Below are positions 1,796 to 60,894 of a stretch of 64,000 nt of DNA, piece after piece. Under the pieces are notes generated by a model. That model saw only the letters and a list, made by a program, of their open reading frames with translations, had not been told where the DNA came from and ran no database searches. Made by a program: the position numbers and the translations under genes. The DNA comes from Eledone cirrhosa (lineage: Eukaryota), in assembly GCA_964016885.1 (NCBI GenBank), contig OZ024766.1, forward strand, positions 2,790,001 to 2,854,000, in the 5' to 3' direction. Positions within the stretch are counted from its first letter, which is position 1. Each line of letters starts with the position of its first letter.

Positions 1796-2578
1796 CTATT
1801 TCACTTCTGTATGAACAGATACATGTCTAGTTAATCTACTTTTTTGAGAGAATGATTCACCACAGATATCACAGTGATGAGGTTTCTCTCCTGTATGTAT
1901 ATATTTGTGTCTACTTAAGCTACTTGACTCTGAAAATGATTTACCACAGATACCACAGTGATAAGGTTTCTCTCCTGTATGACTACGTTTGTGTTTGGTT
2001 ACGTCACTTGTATGAGAGAATGATTTACCACAGATATCACAGTGATGAGGTTTCTCTCCTGTATGACTACGTTTGTGTCTAGTGACATCACTTGTATGAG
2101 AGAATGATTTACCACAGATATCACAGTGATAAGGTTTCTCTCCTGTATGACTACGTTTGTGTATAGTTAAATGAGTTGTTCGAGAGAATGATTTACCACA
2201 GATATCACAGGGGTAAGGTTTCTCTCCTGTATGACTACGCTTGTGTTTGGTTACGTCACTTGTACGAGAGAATGATTTACCACAGATATCACACTGATGA
2301 GGTTTCTCTCCTGTATGAATATATTTGTGTCTAGATAAGCTACTTGAAAGTGAAAATGATTTACCACAGATATCACAGTGATGAGGTTTCTCTCCTGTAT
2401 GACTATGTTTGTGCATATTTAAATGACCTAACTGAGAGAATGATTTACCACAGATATCACAGGGATAAGGTTTCTCTGCTTTATGACTACATTTGTGTCT
2501 AGTTACACCACTTATACAGGAGAATGATTTACCACAGATATCACAGCAGTATGATGATTTTCCTTCCTCTTCTGACAT
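1796..2578 (-). CDS. C2H2 zinc-finger protein (gene 1), 9 fingers
   Basis: Intact ORF of CxxC-x12-HxxxH repeats with TGEKP linkers. First ATG (MSEEEGKSS) at 2578; the track start at 2599 is TTG. Polypyrimidine/TTTCAG acceptor at 2997-2998. Confidence 0.9.
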
Positions 2579-3139
2579 CTCTTCAGGAAAAAATATCAAT
2601 CTTTTAAGTCTCTTCCTAGAATTTTTTCTCTCAACACAATATATTGATATTTTTGCTTGGTTTTGTTTTTACAGTTTATTCCCAATAAATATTTCCTCTG
2701 TTAAATCTCCATCAGCTCTGCTCTTTGTTGATATCTGAATATGATGCAAATTCCTTTGTAAATTTTTGCAACTTTACTAAGAATGCAGAATCTTCTTGTA
2801 CATTTTCCAGATAGGAAGAAGAGAAATCTTTCCATCAACCTCAGTTTAGAAGAAATATTTCACTGTAATTCACCAAATGTTGATATAAAAACACTTATAT
2901 AAACACTGTGTGAAATCTTGTGTTAGTCTTTTAAACAATGATATTGATGTTGTATCTGAAGTTAAAATTTCTCTTCTGTCAATGTCATGTGATATTCTGA
3001 AATAACAGAGAAACAAAATAAGATATAGAGGAGAGGATATTAAAATGTTGTGATTCAACAATGGAAATTTTACCTTTCTTTAATGATAAATAGTCAACAT
3101 CATCATCGTTTAACATCCATCTTCCACACTAGTGTAAAA

Positions 3140-3420
3140 TTTATATAATGAAAATAAAAATGATACACACACGTATATATACACACATATATAAACACAC
3201 GCATTTATATATAAATATACATACACAACATATATGTGTATATATATATATATGTGTATACACATGTGTGTATATATATATGTATATGTGTATATATATG
3301 TGCATGTGCATGTGTATATATATATATATATATACACACATATACATATATACGTGTATATATATATATATATATATACACATATACATTTATATATATA
3401 TACGTGTATATATATATATC
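3140..3420. repeat. Compound (TA)n/(CA)n/(TG)n microsatellite
   Basis: Directly visible; source of the spurious YIYI ORFs. Confidence 0.95.
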
Positions 3421-3611
3421 ATCATTTCATTTCATTTTACGTCCGCTTCTTCCCTGCTTGCAAGGGTGGGACGGGAACTGATTATGGCTTGATTTCTACA
3501 GCTGGATGCCCTTCCTAACACCAACCTCATTTACAGTGAGTGCTGGGTGCTTTTTTGCCGTGGCACCTCCACGACCACTTTACAGTGGAATGATAGGGAC
3601 CCCAGTCCCTA

Positions 3612-3758
3612 TCATCTCATTTCTACAGCTGAGTAAACTGGAGCAATGTGAAATAAAGTGTCTTGCTCAAGGAAACAACACATCACCCGGTCTGAGAATT
3701 GAACTCACAACCTTTCGATTGCAAGGCCAATGCTCTAACCACTAAGCCATATGCCTCC
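3612..3758 (-). mobile_element. tRNA-derived SINE with CORE/V-like central domain
   Basis: Minus strand has A box TGGCTTAGTGG, B box GAGTTCAATTC, then tttccttgagcaagacactttatttcacattgctccag. Confidence 0.75.
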
Positions 3759-4134
3759 ATGTATATATACACATATACATTCATATATATACACATGCAT
3801 ATATGTTGTGTGAGTATATATATACACACACACATACGTGTGCATGCGTATACATGTAATATGTATACATTGCCACTGGTAAAGGAAGTATTGTTTTTCT
3901 TCTGCACCATGCAAAACATTAAGTCAAAGCTATGTACATGAAGATATTGGTATTTACTGAAGTTATCTATCAAATATACATAAATGCTGTTGGTCAGACA
4001 TACTGTCTAAAGACTCTAAATTATTGTCTACACATGGTTTTAGTAGTTAAGTTATGGATGGACAGTAATGTACTTTCACCAACTGCTATGTTATATGATA
4101 TTATCTGTGGATTTGTTTGCAATTTTGTAGTTGA

Positions 4135-57500: not shown

Positions 57501-57904
57501 ATATTTGGTTAAAATATATTTTATAACACCCCTAAAAAATGTTTCTCGTCAGTAAAGAACTAACATCCAATACATTTTACACATATGTATCATCTATTGA
57601 CAATATGACATTTTAATAAAATGAGAGTTCTCTGATCATTATTTTACAAATGTATTTATCCGTGAAGTGCGAAAGGTTGGCGACCATTGCTCCATGTAGA
57701 GTGGTTGGTTTTAGGAAGGGGCATCCAATCATAGAATCTATGTCAAAAAAAGATTGAGAGGACCCTGCAGCTATGTGAAGGGCATGACAACCTCTCCAGT
57801 GTTGGTGATACAAAATTGCATCCTCACCCAACAGACAAATATGACAGCATAGACCTTTGAGTGATGACAAATATTCACTTCAAAACCCCCAATGTCCATT
57901 CAGT

Positions 57905-58055
57905 CTACAACATTATGGGATAGAGGGTCCCTTACTCATACACAACAGGAAATGTGGGTGTTGCCCTCTAAATATTTCTTGTGGCCAGCTACAGTATTAG
58001 GTCATGGGATAGAGGGTCCCTCAATTATACACTACAACAGGGAATGTGGGTGTTG
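57905..58055. repeat. 92-bp VNTR, ~2 diverged copies, no MITE
   Basis: Same unit as 4135-5975. Confidence 0.75.
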
Positions 58056-58199
58056 CCAAAAAATAAATTTAAGAAGACAACTATCAGATATGAGAATAAC
58101 TTTAATCACATTTAAAAATAAAATAAAAAAATATTTAGAAGCTGTAGAAATACTAAGGGTTTCCTTGTGATATTAGTTGACAATAAGTTTATATATGTA

Positions 58200-59430
58200 A
58201 CATGAAGGACATGTTACATTGCCAAATTAAAATGTTTGTTTGATTTTCTCTATTTAAGTCACTGGTAGGGCTTTCATCAGAGTCTCTTCTCTTGTGTGCA
58301 TTTAAATTACTGCTACAGACAAAAGATTTCCCACACATTACACATTTGAAGGGTTTTTATCCAGTGTCTGATCTTTTGTGTATATTTAAGTTACCAATAG
58401 TGACATGAGATTTACCCCATATTTCACAATGAAAGAGTTTCTCTCCTGTATGAATGTATTTGTGATTTGTTAAGTGACCCGAACGAGAGAATGATTTACC
58501 ACAGATATGACAGAGGTGTGGCTTCTCTCCTGTATGTATACATTTGTGTTTAGCTAAGCTACTTCACTGCACGAATAACTTACCACAGTTATCAGTGATG
58601 AGGTTTCTCTCCTGTATGAATATGTATGTGTTCAGGTAAGTGACATGACAGTGAGAATGATTTACCACAGACTTCAGTGATCAGTGATAAGGTTTTTTTC
58701 CTGTATGACTATATTTGTGTTGAGTTAAGTGATGATTTAGAGAGATTTATTTACTACAGATATCACAGTGAAAAGGCTTCTCTCCTGTATGAATACGTAT
58801 GTGTCTAGTTAAGTGACCATTTCGAGAGAATGATTTACCACAGATGTCAGTGATGAGGCTTTTCTCCTGTATGACTATATTTGTGTTGAGCTAAGTGATG
58901 ATTTAGAGGGGATTATTTACCAGAGAAATCACAGTGATAAAGCTTCTCTCCTGTATAAAGATGTATGTGTGTAGTTAATTGATAATTTAGAGAGAATATT
59001 TAACCACATATCTCAGTGATGAGGTTTCTCTCCTCATTGACTATATTTACGTACAGTTAAGTGACCTAACTGAGAGAATGATTTACCACAGATATCACAC
59101 TGATGAGGTTTCTCTCCTGTATGTATATATTTGTGTTTAGTTAAGTGACTTGATACAAAAAAGGATTTACCTCAAATGACCCACTGATGAGGTTTCCCTC
59201 CTGTATGAATATATCTGTGTTGAGCTAAATGATCATTTCGAGAGAATGATTTACCACAGATTTCACAGTGATAAGATTTATCTCCTGTATGAATACATTT
59301 GTGTATTGTTAAAGTACGTAGCCGAGAGAATGATTTACCACAGATATCACAGTGATGAGTTTTCTCTCCTGTATGACTACGTTTGTGCTTGGTTACGTCA
59401 CTTGTATGAGCAAATGATTTACCACAGATA
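58200..59430 (-). pseudogene. Long out-of-frame, progressively decayed finger tail of gene 8 (~13-14 fingers)
   Basis: Continuous ~84-bp finger periodicity with many indels, running straight into the spacer. The HVSVHTEV end and 3' block are missing. Confidence 0.85.
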
Positions 59431-60894
59431 TCACAGTGATGAGGCTTCTCCTGTGTGACTATGTTTGTGCATAGTTAAATGACCTAACAGAGAGAATGAT
59501 TTATCACAGACATTACAGTGATAAGGTTTCTCTCCTGTATGACTACGTTTGTGTATATTTAAGGCACTTGTACGAGAGAATGATTTACCACAGAAATCAC
59601 AGTGATAAGGTTTCTCTCCTGTATGAATACGCTTGTGTTTGGTTACGTCACTTGTATGAGAAAATGATTTACCACAGATATCACAGTGATAAGGTTTCTC
59701 TCCTGTATGACTACGTTTGTGCTTGGTTACGTCACTTGTAGAAGAGAATGATTTACCACAGATATCACAGGGATAAGGCTTCTCTCCTGTATGACTACGT
59801 TTGTGCAAAGTTAAATGACCTAACTGAGAGAATGATTTACCACAGATATCACAGGGATAAGGCTTTTCTCCTGTATGACTACGTTTGTGCAAAGTTAAAT
59901 GACCTATCTGAGAGAATGATTTACCACAGATATCACAGGAATAAGGCTTCTCTCCTGTATGAATACGTTTGTGAATTGTTAAATGACGTAACTGAGATAA
60001 TGATTTACCACAGATATCACAGGGATAAGGTTTCTCTCCTGTATGACTACGTTTGTGTACATTTAAGGGATTTGTACCACAGAATGATTTACCACAGATA
60101 TCACAGGGATAAGGTTTCTCTCCTGTATGACTACGTTTGTGTGCAGTTAAGGGACTTGCACCAGAGAATGATTTACCACAGACATCACACCGATAAGGTA
60201 TCTCTCCTGTATGAATACCCTTGTGTTTGGTTAAGTCACTTTTATGAGAGAATGATTTACCACAGAAAGCACAGTGATAAGGTTTCTCTCCTGTATGAAT
60301 ACACTTATGTTTGGTTAACTCACTTTTATGAGAGAATGATTTACCACAGACATCACAGGGATAAGGTTTCTCTCCTGTATGAATACGTTTGTGTATAGTT
60401 TCATCACCTTTATGAGAGAATGATTTACCACAGATATCACAGGGATAAGGTTTCTCTCCTGTATGACTACGTATGTGTATAGTTAAGGAACTTGTACAAG
60501 AGAATGATTTACCACAGACATCACAGGGATAAGGTTTCTCTCCTGTATGAGTACGTTTGTGTATAGTTATGCCACTTGTACAAGAGAATGATTTACCACA
60601 GATATCACAGGGATAAGGTTTCTCTCCTGTATGACTACGTTTGTGTATAGTTAAGGTACTTGACTCAGAGAATGATTTACCACAGATATCACAGGGATAA
60701 GGTTTCTCTCCTGTATGACTACGTTTGTGTATAGTTAAGGCACTTGTACGAGAGAATGATTTACCACAGAAATCACAGTGATGAGATTTCTCTCCTGTAT
60801 GACTACGCTTGTGTTTGGTTATGTCACTTGTACGAGAGAATGATTTACCACAGATATCACAGCAGTATGATGATTTTCCTTCCTCTTCTGACAT
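59431..60894 (-). CDS. C2H2 zinc-finger protein (gene 8), 17 fingers, truncated by frameshift (ends HTGEASSL*)
   Basis: Long intact ORF; ATG at 60894; acceptor at 61288-61289. Confidence 0.8.

What the first reader, a model, noticed from the sequence alone, without database searches (positions are those of the whole stretch)
1796..60894. Tandem ZNF gene array with near-identical flanks but reshuffled finger cassettes
Seen: eight co-oriented genes in ~7-10 kb units whose introns and spacers are nearly identical, yet whose finger number (9, 16, 18, 16, 16, 19, 19, 17) and order differ. The scaffold tgtgatatctgtggtaaatcattctc is almost invariant. A small vocabulary of recognition helices (QLGHLT, RTSDVT/IT, CTSALT, HKSDLT, YKSEIT, RLRTLT) is reused in different orders across paralogs. 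No KRAB/SCAN/BTB-like domain precedes finger 1 (only ~9 aa). Known: octopus genomes have large clustered C2H2 expansions, and PRDM9 arrays evolve as coding minisatellites. Inference: two-level recombination (84-bp finger, ~8-kb gene) generates a combinatorial repertoire of effector-less DNA binders, possibly directed at transposons.
Basis: partly seen in the sequence, partly recalled or inferred. Interest (0 to 1): 0.75.

Follow-up and report, generated by a model that had tools for sequence, protein, structure and literature searches.

The report
Fast-evolving finger-only octopus zinc-finger cluster
Eight recently duplicated zinc-finger genes, likely from an octopod, have exchanged blocks of fingers and change their DNA-touching amino acids about twice as fast as neutral DNA while carrying no known silencing domain, a pattern known from mouse and insect clusters that likely reflects a race against fast-changing DNA such as transposons, though no target was tested.

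Summary
Real, and of a known kind. The eight minus-strand C2H2 genes belong to a 16-unit tandem cluster and a larger family on one contig (45 genes parsed). A spliced contig, plus an in-frame stop upstream of the start codon in 45 of 45 genes, supports finger-only proteins. Two-level recombination is supported: chimeric arrays, flank trees that reject finger-defined groups (AU p 0.001-0.002), and linkage decay within the finger. Contact positions -1, 2, 3, 6 show dN/dS of about 2.1-2.7, against 0.6-0.75 for the scaffold and about 0 for Cys/His. The excess disappears in the stranded fingers, an internal neutral control. Transposon targeting and polymorphism between individuals are untested. The closest known cases are young mouse KZFP clusters and finger-only hemipteran ZF271-like clusters. 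It is not PRDM9. The scan noted a similar cluster on other DNA of this genome (e1-9557371).

The parts
1796..2578 (-). U07 coding sequence, 260 aa, 9 fingers; first 63 nt of each of its 9 fingers identical in three more copies just outside the window (U04-U06)
11899..13266 (-). U08 coding sequence, 455 aa, 16 fingers
18706..20241 (-). U09 coding sequence, 511 aa, 18 fingers (U08 array plus two extra QLGHLT fingers)
26128..27507 (-). U10 coding sequence, 459 aa, 16 fingers, ends at the shared 2-nt deletion (HTGEASSL)
25806..26132 (-). U10: 4 out-of-frame fingers behind the frameshift
35828..37198 (-). U11 coding sequence, 456 aa, 16 fingers; chimera: fingers 2-7 match U08 (0-2 differences in 75 nt), 3' downstream region matches the gene at C27:3183907
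43348..44967 (-). U12 coding sequence, 539 aa, 19 fingers (one has lost Cys1)
44968..45360 (-). U12 exon-2 5' leader with an in-frame stop and 3 upstream ATGs
45361..47552 (-). U12 intron, 2192 nt, GT-AG; holds a very high-copy repeat near 46560-46770 and a decayed retroelement-like stretch near 45590-46080 (label recalled, no Pfam hit)
   Evidence: joint 45360-47553 in run X4 only
47553..47730 (-). U12 exon 1 with a 25-codon upstream ORF; 5' end approximate
51293..52924 (-). U13 coding sequence, 543 aa, 19 fingers, ends at the shared deletion
50829..51297 (-). U13: 5 out-of-frame fingers and a broken terminal finger
59431..60894 (-). U14 coding sequence, 487 aa, 17 fingers, ends at the shared deletion
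58260..59435 (-). U14: 14 out-of-frame, decaying fingers; the last 7 match the other subfamily (gene at C27:3088861, 0-4 differences in 75 nt)
2997..8304 (-). U07 intron (5308 nt, inferred from conserved donor and acceptor), enlarged by a duplicated segment and a 20-copy 92-bp minisatellite (4136-5976)
88..656 (-). 82-bp pseudo-finger minisatellite downstream of a gene (0-8 probe hits per spacer; also near 10449-10769, 17270-17508, 24464-24664)

Best explanation
This is a young tandem cluster of two-exon zinc-finger genes that likely encode finger-only DNA-binding proteins; their arrays show block duplication, deletion and exchange between copies and an excess of amino-acid change at the DNA-contact positions, likely because selection favours new specificities against fast-changing DNA such as transposons (target untested). 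Shown by calls: the gene layout, colinear block gains and losses, chimeric arrays, dN/dS above 1 at helix -1, 2, 3, 6 with purifying selection on Cys/His, and loss of both signals in fingers stranded behind a frameshift. Inferred: out-of-register crossing-over and gene conversion at the 84-bp and ~8-kb scales produce these patterns, and the proteins bind DNA through the standard helix code. Without an effector domain they would act by occupying sites or by recruiting partners through the fingers or the short charged N-terminus. My odds: about 0.85 for two-level recombination plus diversifying selection, 0.8 for finger-only, 0.45 that transposons or other repeats are the main target.
For: Finger-only: joint 45360-47553 with CT..AC ends in run X4 (2 contigs, depth 184), 0 in DNA runs X1, X21 and X22. 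Donor and acceptor are conserved in all 16 cluster units. An in-frame stop lies upstream of the Met in 45 of 45 genes. No KRAB, SET, BTB, SCAN or ZAD hit among 59 of 59 open stretches of the U12 spacer. Selection: positionally aligned fingers of the 8 window genes (68 pairs) give contact dN/dS 2.10 (bootstrap 1.33-2.82, p 0.002); 16 cluster genes give 2.71 (1.93-3.68); 28 other family genes give 2.04; scaffold is 0.58-0.75 and Cys/His 0-0.05 (kappa 2). The excess holds without CpG-containing codons (2.3) and among changes with no possible conversion donor (3.65, p 1e-8). It exceeds a diversity-weighted conversion model (92 observed, 43 expected). Synonymous divergence in fingers (0.0195) matches flank divergence (0.016). 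Behind frameshifts or stops, contact dN/dS is 0.85-1.0 and only 43 of 130 fingers are intact, against 713 of 722 in frame; the contact share of changes is 100 of 222 against 5 of 49 (Fisher p 2e-6). Recombination: 5' flank data reject U08+U09+U11 as a clade (p-AU 0.0014) and the six frameshift-sharing genes as a clade (p-AU 0.0022). The U14-U16 tails match a subfamily whose 5' flank is 22-26% divergent. Linkage decays along the finger (permutation p 0.0025). Family level: predicted octopus ZNF motifs are enriched in TE libraries (PMC10547256, passages).
Against: The seven closest gene pairs alone show no significant excess (contact N=6, dN/dS 0.9-2.0, p 0.18-0.72). dN/dS came from pairwise counting along a spanning tree of recombining paralogs, with finger pairs over 4 differences dropped, not from a codon-model likelihood test. 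A first finger-level analysis also gave 1.8-2.1 at contact sites of stranded fingers, which I read as divergence from when they were coding. The stranded control is small (11-18 synonymous changes) and noisy at helix 1/4/5 (about 2). Run X4's kind is not on record, and 94 further joints were not shown, so another splice form that brings in a coding exon is not excluded. Two of four AU tests did not reject (U08+U09 p 0.33; U12+U13 p 0.13). Cephalopod TEs are reported not to be strongly methylated (PMC11292947, passages). Expanded cephalopod C2H2 genes are mainly neural (PMC12513265). The leaders hold 2-6 upstream ATGs, and translation was not observed directly.
Confidence: 0.62

Rival explanations
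1. Same genomic mechanism, but the selected targets are host regulatory DNA (for example neural cell-type enhancers), not transposons.
For: Expanded cephalopod C2H2 genes are expressed mostly in brain tissue and fall into different co-expression modules (PMC12513265, parts 1-2 of 7 and passages). TEs lack strong methylation in cephalopods (PMC11292947). No repressor domain was found here.
Against: Contact residues change at about 2.5 times the flank rate among copies whose 5' flanks are on average 1.6% apart, and arrays are often truncated (6 of 16 units). That turnover fits a moving target better than stable enhancers (inference). The arms-race reading is argued in PMC12988792 section 2.4 (read).
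Confidence: 0.2
2. Neutral turnover of a coding minisatellite: fingers are kept folded, but the helix is simply unconstrained and is stirred by conversion and CpG mutation.
For: Non-coding minisatellites in the same unit vary as much in copy number (92-bp: 0-22 probe hits, 82-bp: 0-8). Scaffold dN/dS is high (0.6-0.75). The closest pairs show no excess. Position -1 has many CpG-type changes (12 of 34).
Against: dN/dS is above 1, not near 1, in three gene sets. It survives the CpG, no-donor and diversity-weighted controls. It is confined to -1, 2, 3, 6 and absent behind frameshifts.
Confidence: 0.1
3. PRDM9-derived or PRDM9-like recombination-site specifiers that have lost, or borrow in trans, the SET domain.
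For: Diversity is concentrated at the contact positions on a homogeneous scaffold. Truncated PRDM9 paralogs exist in cnidarians (bioRxiv 10.64898/2026.09.07.749791, passages).
Against: No SET, SSXRD or KRAB sequence in the unit. Fingers within a gene are no more alike than fingers between genes (median 15 of 75 nt in both), unlike a per-gene homogenised minisatellite. The family has at least 64 exact leader matches on one contig.
Confidence: 0.05
4. The variation is an assembly artefact of a collapsed or mis-joined repeat.
For: U04-U07 have identical finger cores and 0-1% flank difference.
Against: The other units differ by 1-4.6% in 5' flanks and carry frame-specific selection signals. U04-U07 differ in minisatellite copy number.
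Confidence: 0.03

Closest known systems
Hemipteran ZF271-like / APEZ zinc-finger subfamily (Oncopeltus, pea aphid; PMC6444547, passages)
   Same: Lineage-specific expansion of proteins with no domain besides the finger array, in tandem clusters of 4-8 genes, with pseudogenes and arrays differing in length and sequence.
   Different: There, clustered genes differ in exon structure and no contact-site dN/dS test appears in the passages read. Here the two-exon layout is uniform, 5' flanks are 95-99% alike and selection at contact sites is measured. Independent origin is inferred, not tested.
Young mouse KRAB-ZFP clusters (PMC5363842 section 7 read; PMC12575710 passages)
   Same: Close paralogs whose finger-coding segment is the least conserved part; duplications, deletions and repeats of finger blocks; degeneration of lost fingers; expansion by non-allelic recombination.
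   Different: No KRAB exon here. Units are 7-11 kb. TE binding is shown experimentally in mouse and untested here.
Coleoid cephalopod C2H2 expansions (PMC12513265; PMC9068888 passages; PMC10547256 passages)
   Same: Large clustered C2H2 families. Named octopus hits are 62-64% identical over the query region, and one has a similar terminal finger.
   Different: Those papers, as far as read, give gene trees, expression, positional entropy and predicted TE binding, not finger-level recombination or dN/dS within a cluster.
PRDM9 zinc-finger minisatellite (bioRxiv 10.64898/2026.09.07.749791, passages; otherwise recalled)
   Same: Hypervariable -1, 2, 3, 6 positions on a conserved 84-bp unit; variable finger number.
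   Different: No KRAB, SSXRD or SET; homogeneity is family-wide rather than within one array; dozens of genes.
Cyprinid FiNZ-ZNFs (PMC10547256, passages)
   Same: Two-exon genes in clusters with positive selection at contact residues in some clades.
   Different: FiNZ exon 1 encodes a conserved 28-aa domain. Here exon 1 cannot be in frame with the fingers in the splice form seen, and its short ORF is frameshifted in several copies.

Membership tests
Tandem (poly) C2H2 Kruppel-type zinc-finger genes | Tandem C-x2-C-x12-H-x3-H fingers with TGEKP-type linkers | tested here: met
   (PF00096, PF13465 far above cut-off)
Octopod C2H2 expansion | Octopod origin and membership of an octopus-specific clade | tested here: inconclusive
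   3.0-Gb genome; Octopus proteins have the highest identity (62-64%) among 22 hits and one has a similar terminal finger, but the best E-value was an unnamed protein and the whole-length search was generic; no family tree built
KRAB-ZFP | N-terminal KRAB domain on an upstream coding exon | tested here: not met
KRAB-ZFP | Positive selection at -1, 2, 3, 6 and finger block gain or loss among paralogs | tested here: met
KRAB-ZFP | Binds and silences transposons through a co-repressor | not testable with these tools
   no validated motif predictor, TE library or binding data
PRDM9 | KRAB, SSXRD and PR/SET domains upstream of the array | tested here: not met
   one of eight window spacers (U12) scanned, plus exon structure of all
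PRDM9 | Within-array homogenisation (fingers of one gene more alike than fingers of other genes) | tested here: not met
   median 15 of 75 nt both within and between genes; only adjacent fingers are enriched for near-identity, 7.9% against 1.9%
PRDM9 | Diversity concentrated at contact positions | tested here: met
   -1, 3 and 6 have the three highest amino-acid entropies; the four contact positions hold about 40% of summed entropy (summed by hand)
PRDM9 | Allelic array polymorphism between individuals | not testable with these tools
Finger-only clusters (ZF271-like type) | No domain besides the array; tandem clusters; high turnover | tested here: met
   a shared design, with common descent not tested

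The most novel reading that the evidence does not exclude
Octopods run a family-wide, recombining pool of 84-bp finger modules, shared across dozens of finger-only genes up to 0.4 Mb apart. The pool is polymorphic between individuals and is selected to track young transposons, which it silences or blocks by a route that needs neither KRAB nor DNA methylation.
Probability: 0.25. Interest if true: 0.75.

Novelty: new member of a known kind. Interest (0 to 1): 0.45.

Why it matters
Whether the cephalopod C2H2 expansion reflects brain regulation or a transposon arms race is stated as open in recent papers (PMC12513265 passage; PMC12988792 section 2.4). This cluster gives direct evidence of diversifying selection on DNA-contact residues among copies a few percent apart. 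It also has a built-in neutral control, the fingers stranded behind a shared frameshift. And it supplies short, defined, finger-only proteins (such as the four-copy 9-finger gene) whose binding sites and partners can be tested. The pattern itself is familiar from mouse and insect clusters, so it extends a known kind rather than opening a new one.

Tried and rejected
Free reshuffling of finger order: rejected as the main process; a minority of blocks are relocated, e.g. U07 fingers 2-3 match U12 fingers 16-17. Hidden upstream effector exon: not found. The exon-1 upstream ORF reminded me of the huntingtin N-terminus (recalled): 0 PDB hits at E<=10, and the ORF is frameshifted in several outer copies, so I dropped it. 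Transposon origin of exon 1: the 2 of 66 exact 18-mer matches outside this contig lie at starts of retroelement-like ORFs, with no further similarity to exon 1, so it is not supported. A remnant of the N-terminal segment of an O. bimaculoides ZNF in the leader: best score 31, within the null 95th percentile of 34. The whole-protein homology search returned generic ZNFs, and the leader-region search returned nothing. No RNA holder was listed on record. (85% likeness) was swamped by finger and repeat matches and showed no splice joint among the rows listed. The finger-level spanning-tree dN/dS was set aside because it pairs non-orthologous fingers. The protein atlas gave no result. The 2015 octopus genome paper is not held; it and its supplement, and Supplemental Fig. 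8 of PMC10547256, were not seen and may already describe part of this. Motif prediction against TEs was not attempted, as no validated tool was available.
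Full report
Setting. The window is G000:C27:2790001-2854000 of a 3.0-Gb genome. It holds eight minus-strand poly-C2H2 ORFs. Neighbouring DNA extends the run to 16 close units (U01-U16; the window holds U07-U14). From 464 kb in three stretches I parsed 45 genes with the same acceptor motif. An 18-nt piece of the leader exon has 66 exact matches, 64 of them on this contig. 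An octopod origin is likely but is an inference: Octopus proteins have the highest identity (62-64%) among 22 hits, and one has a similar terminal finger.

Observation. Six of 16 units (U02, U10, U13-U16; three in the window) share a 2-nt deletion, always in the linker after a QLGHL-type finger (LLGHL in U14). It ends the protein in HTGEASSL and leaves 4-14 fingers out of frame. Homologous spacer DNA is 92-97% identical, but only 28-94% of a spacer aligns. Arrays are more divergent than 5' flanks in most pairs: the best-matching finger differs by 5-15% on average, against 1-4.6% for 5' flanks. U08 and U09 are the exception, with arrays about 1% and flanks 2.8% apart. Finger order is mostly kept: 128 of 135 matchable fingers are colinear, against 74.5 when shuffled.

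Gene structure. Run X4 (kind not on record; I infer RNA from the joint) has a joint 45360-47553 that skips 2192 nt with GT-AG ends on the minus strand. It appears in 2 contigs and in none of the three DNA runs laid with it. Only 15 of 109 joints were shown, and contigs were accepted from 94% likeness, so the joint may come from any paralog. Donor and acceptor are present in all 16 units. Exon 2 carries a leader of about 400 nt with an in-frame stop in 45 of 45 genes, and the first Met lies 11 codons before the first Cys. Pfam finds no effector in 59 of 59 open stretches of the U12 spacer; I scanned 59 of the 117 stretches listed, one spacer of two. In this splice form the protein is therefore finger-only, with a short acidic (MSEEEGKS) or, in the sister subfamily, basic (MSKRNKKS) start.

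Recombination at two levels. Gene level: U04-U07 are four copies with identical finger cores. U11 joins a U08-type 5' block to a 3' region closest to a gene 0.36 Mb away. The tails of U14-U16 match a subfamily whose 5' flank is 22-26% divergent. On 5' flank data (20 rows; U01 and V1 left out), AU tests reject U08+U09+U11 (p 0.0014) and the six frameshift genes (p 0.0022) as clades, and do not reject U08+U09 (0.33) or U12+U13 (0.13). Finger level: adjacent fingers are near-identical four times as often as random pairs within a gene (7.9% against 1.9%). Linkage between variable sites falls with distance inside the 84-bp unit (r2 0.096 to 0.018, permutation p 0.0025). Recurrent mutation also contributes to the 67% of site pairs failing the four-gamete test. 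Non-coding 92-bp and 82-bp minisatellites in the same units vary in number too, so finger-number change alone needs no selection.

Selection. I aligned arrays finger by finger and counted changes along a spanning tree of genes. One pseudogene of 45 was dropped, 22 or 32 of 43 edges were used, and pairs with more than 2, 4 or 6 differences were dropped in turn. At the 4-difference cut, contact positions -1, 2, 3, 6 give dN/dS 2.10 (95% bootstrap 1.33-2.82) for the 8 window genes, 2.71 for the 16 cluster genes, 2.04 for 28 other genes and 2.16 for all 44. The scaffold gives 0.58-0.75 and Cys/His 0-0.05 (kappa 2; contact values are higher with kappa 4). Four controls support the excess. It remains without CpG codons. 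It remains among changes that no other finger could have donated (3.65), and it is twice what a diversity-weighted conversion model predicts. Synonymous divergence equals flank divergence. In stranded fingers it vanishes (0.85-1.0) while Cys/His decay: 43 of 130 intact, against 713 of 722 in frame. Against: the seven closest pairs alone are uninformative, a cruder analysis also gave an excess in stranded fingers, the stranded sample is small, and no likelihood codon test was run.

How it most likely works. Out-of-register exchange on a homogeneous scaffold duplicates, deletes and swaps finger blocks within and between genes (inferred from the patterns above). New point changes at contact residues are then favoured by selection (shown statistically). 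Each gene would thus read a different long DNA word, by the standard C2H2 code (established knowledge, not tested here). A moving target such as young transposons is the likeliest driver: predicted octopus ZNF motifs are enriched in TE libraries (PMC10547256, passages). But cephalopod TEs lack strong methylation (PMC11292947, passages), no effector is present, and neural enhancers remain a rival (PMC12513265, parts 1-2 of 7 and passages).

Comparison and novelty. Mouse KZFP paralogs show the same finger-level duplication, deletion and decay, with the finger segment least conserved (PMC5363842 section 7; PMC12575710 passages). Hemipteran ZF271-like genes are finger-only tandem clusters (PMC6444547 passages). 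PRDM9 and KRAB-ZFP membership each fail on a defining feature. Six paper searches listed no study whose title or abstract start pointed to finger-level recombination or contact-site dN/dS in a cephalopod cluster. PMC10547256 reports positional entropy for its species, octopus included. The 2015 octopus genome paper was not held, and no supplements were read. Verdict: a real, well-supported new member of a known kind, interest 0.45.

Noticed in passing
window 47597-47671 (-), and all units: The leader exon is among the most conserved parts of the family (92-100% over about 230 nt in 23 copies) and holds a 25-codon upstream ORF with a short Gln run, frameshifted in several outer copies. Leaders carry 2-6 more upstream ATGs, so translation may be throttled.
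   Followed up: partly
window 88-656, 10449-10769, 17270-17508, 24464-24664: An 82-bp non-coding minisatellite made of a frameshifted zinc-finger unit lies downstream of the genes and still changes copy number.
   Followed up: partly
G000:C27:2762441-2792545 (U04-U07): Four copies of a 9-finger gene with identical finger cores, 0-1% flank difference and 16-22 probe hits for a 92-bp intronic minisatellite: a very recent amplification, or a partial assembly artefact.
   Followed up: partly
G000:C27:3079211-3169376: A sister subfamily of 13 genes with a basic N-terminus and 6-31 in-frame fingers; most end in a shared decayed tail, so truncation with stranded fingers recurs.
   Followed up: partly
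G000:C27:2932033-2951937 (L018-L020): A different tandem ZNF family with an unrelated helix vocabulary and ~4.5-kb units begins about 60 kb beyond the cluster.
   Followed up: no
U02, G000:C27:2747554-2749398: The frameshift-bearing finger itself is duplicated, so finger duplication went on after the deletion arose.
   Followed up: no
window 34573-35377: A 66-bp, 11-copy, 97%-identical minisatellite lies just downstream of U11 and was reported nowhere else in the window.
   Followed up: no
L047:3854 and L048:3935: Two retroelement-like loci on other contigs begin an ORF with the same 18 nt as the leader's upstream ORF, with no further similarity to exon 1.
   Followed up: yes
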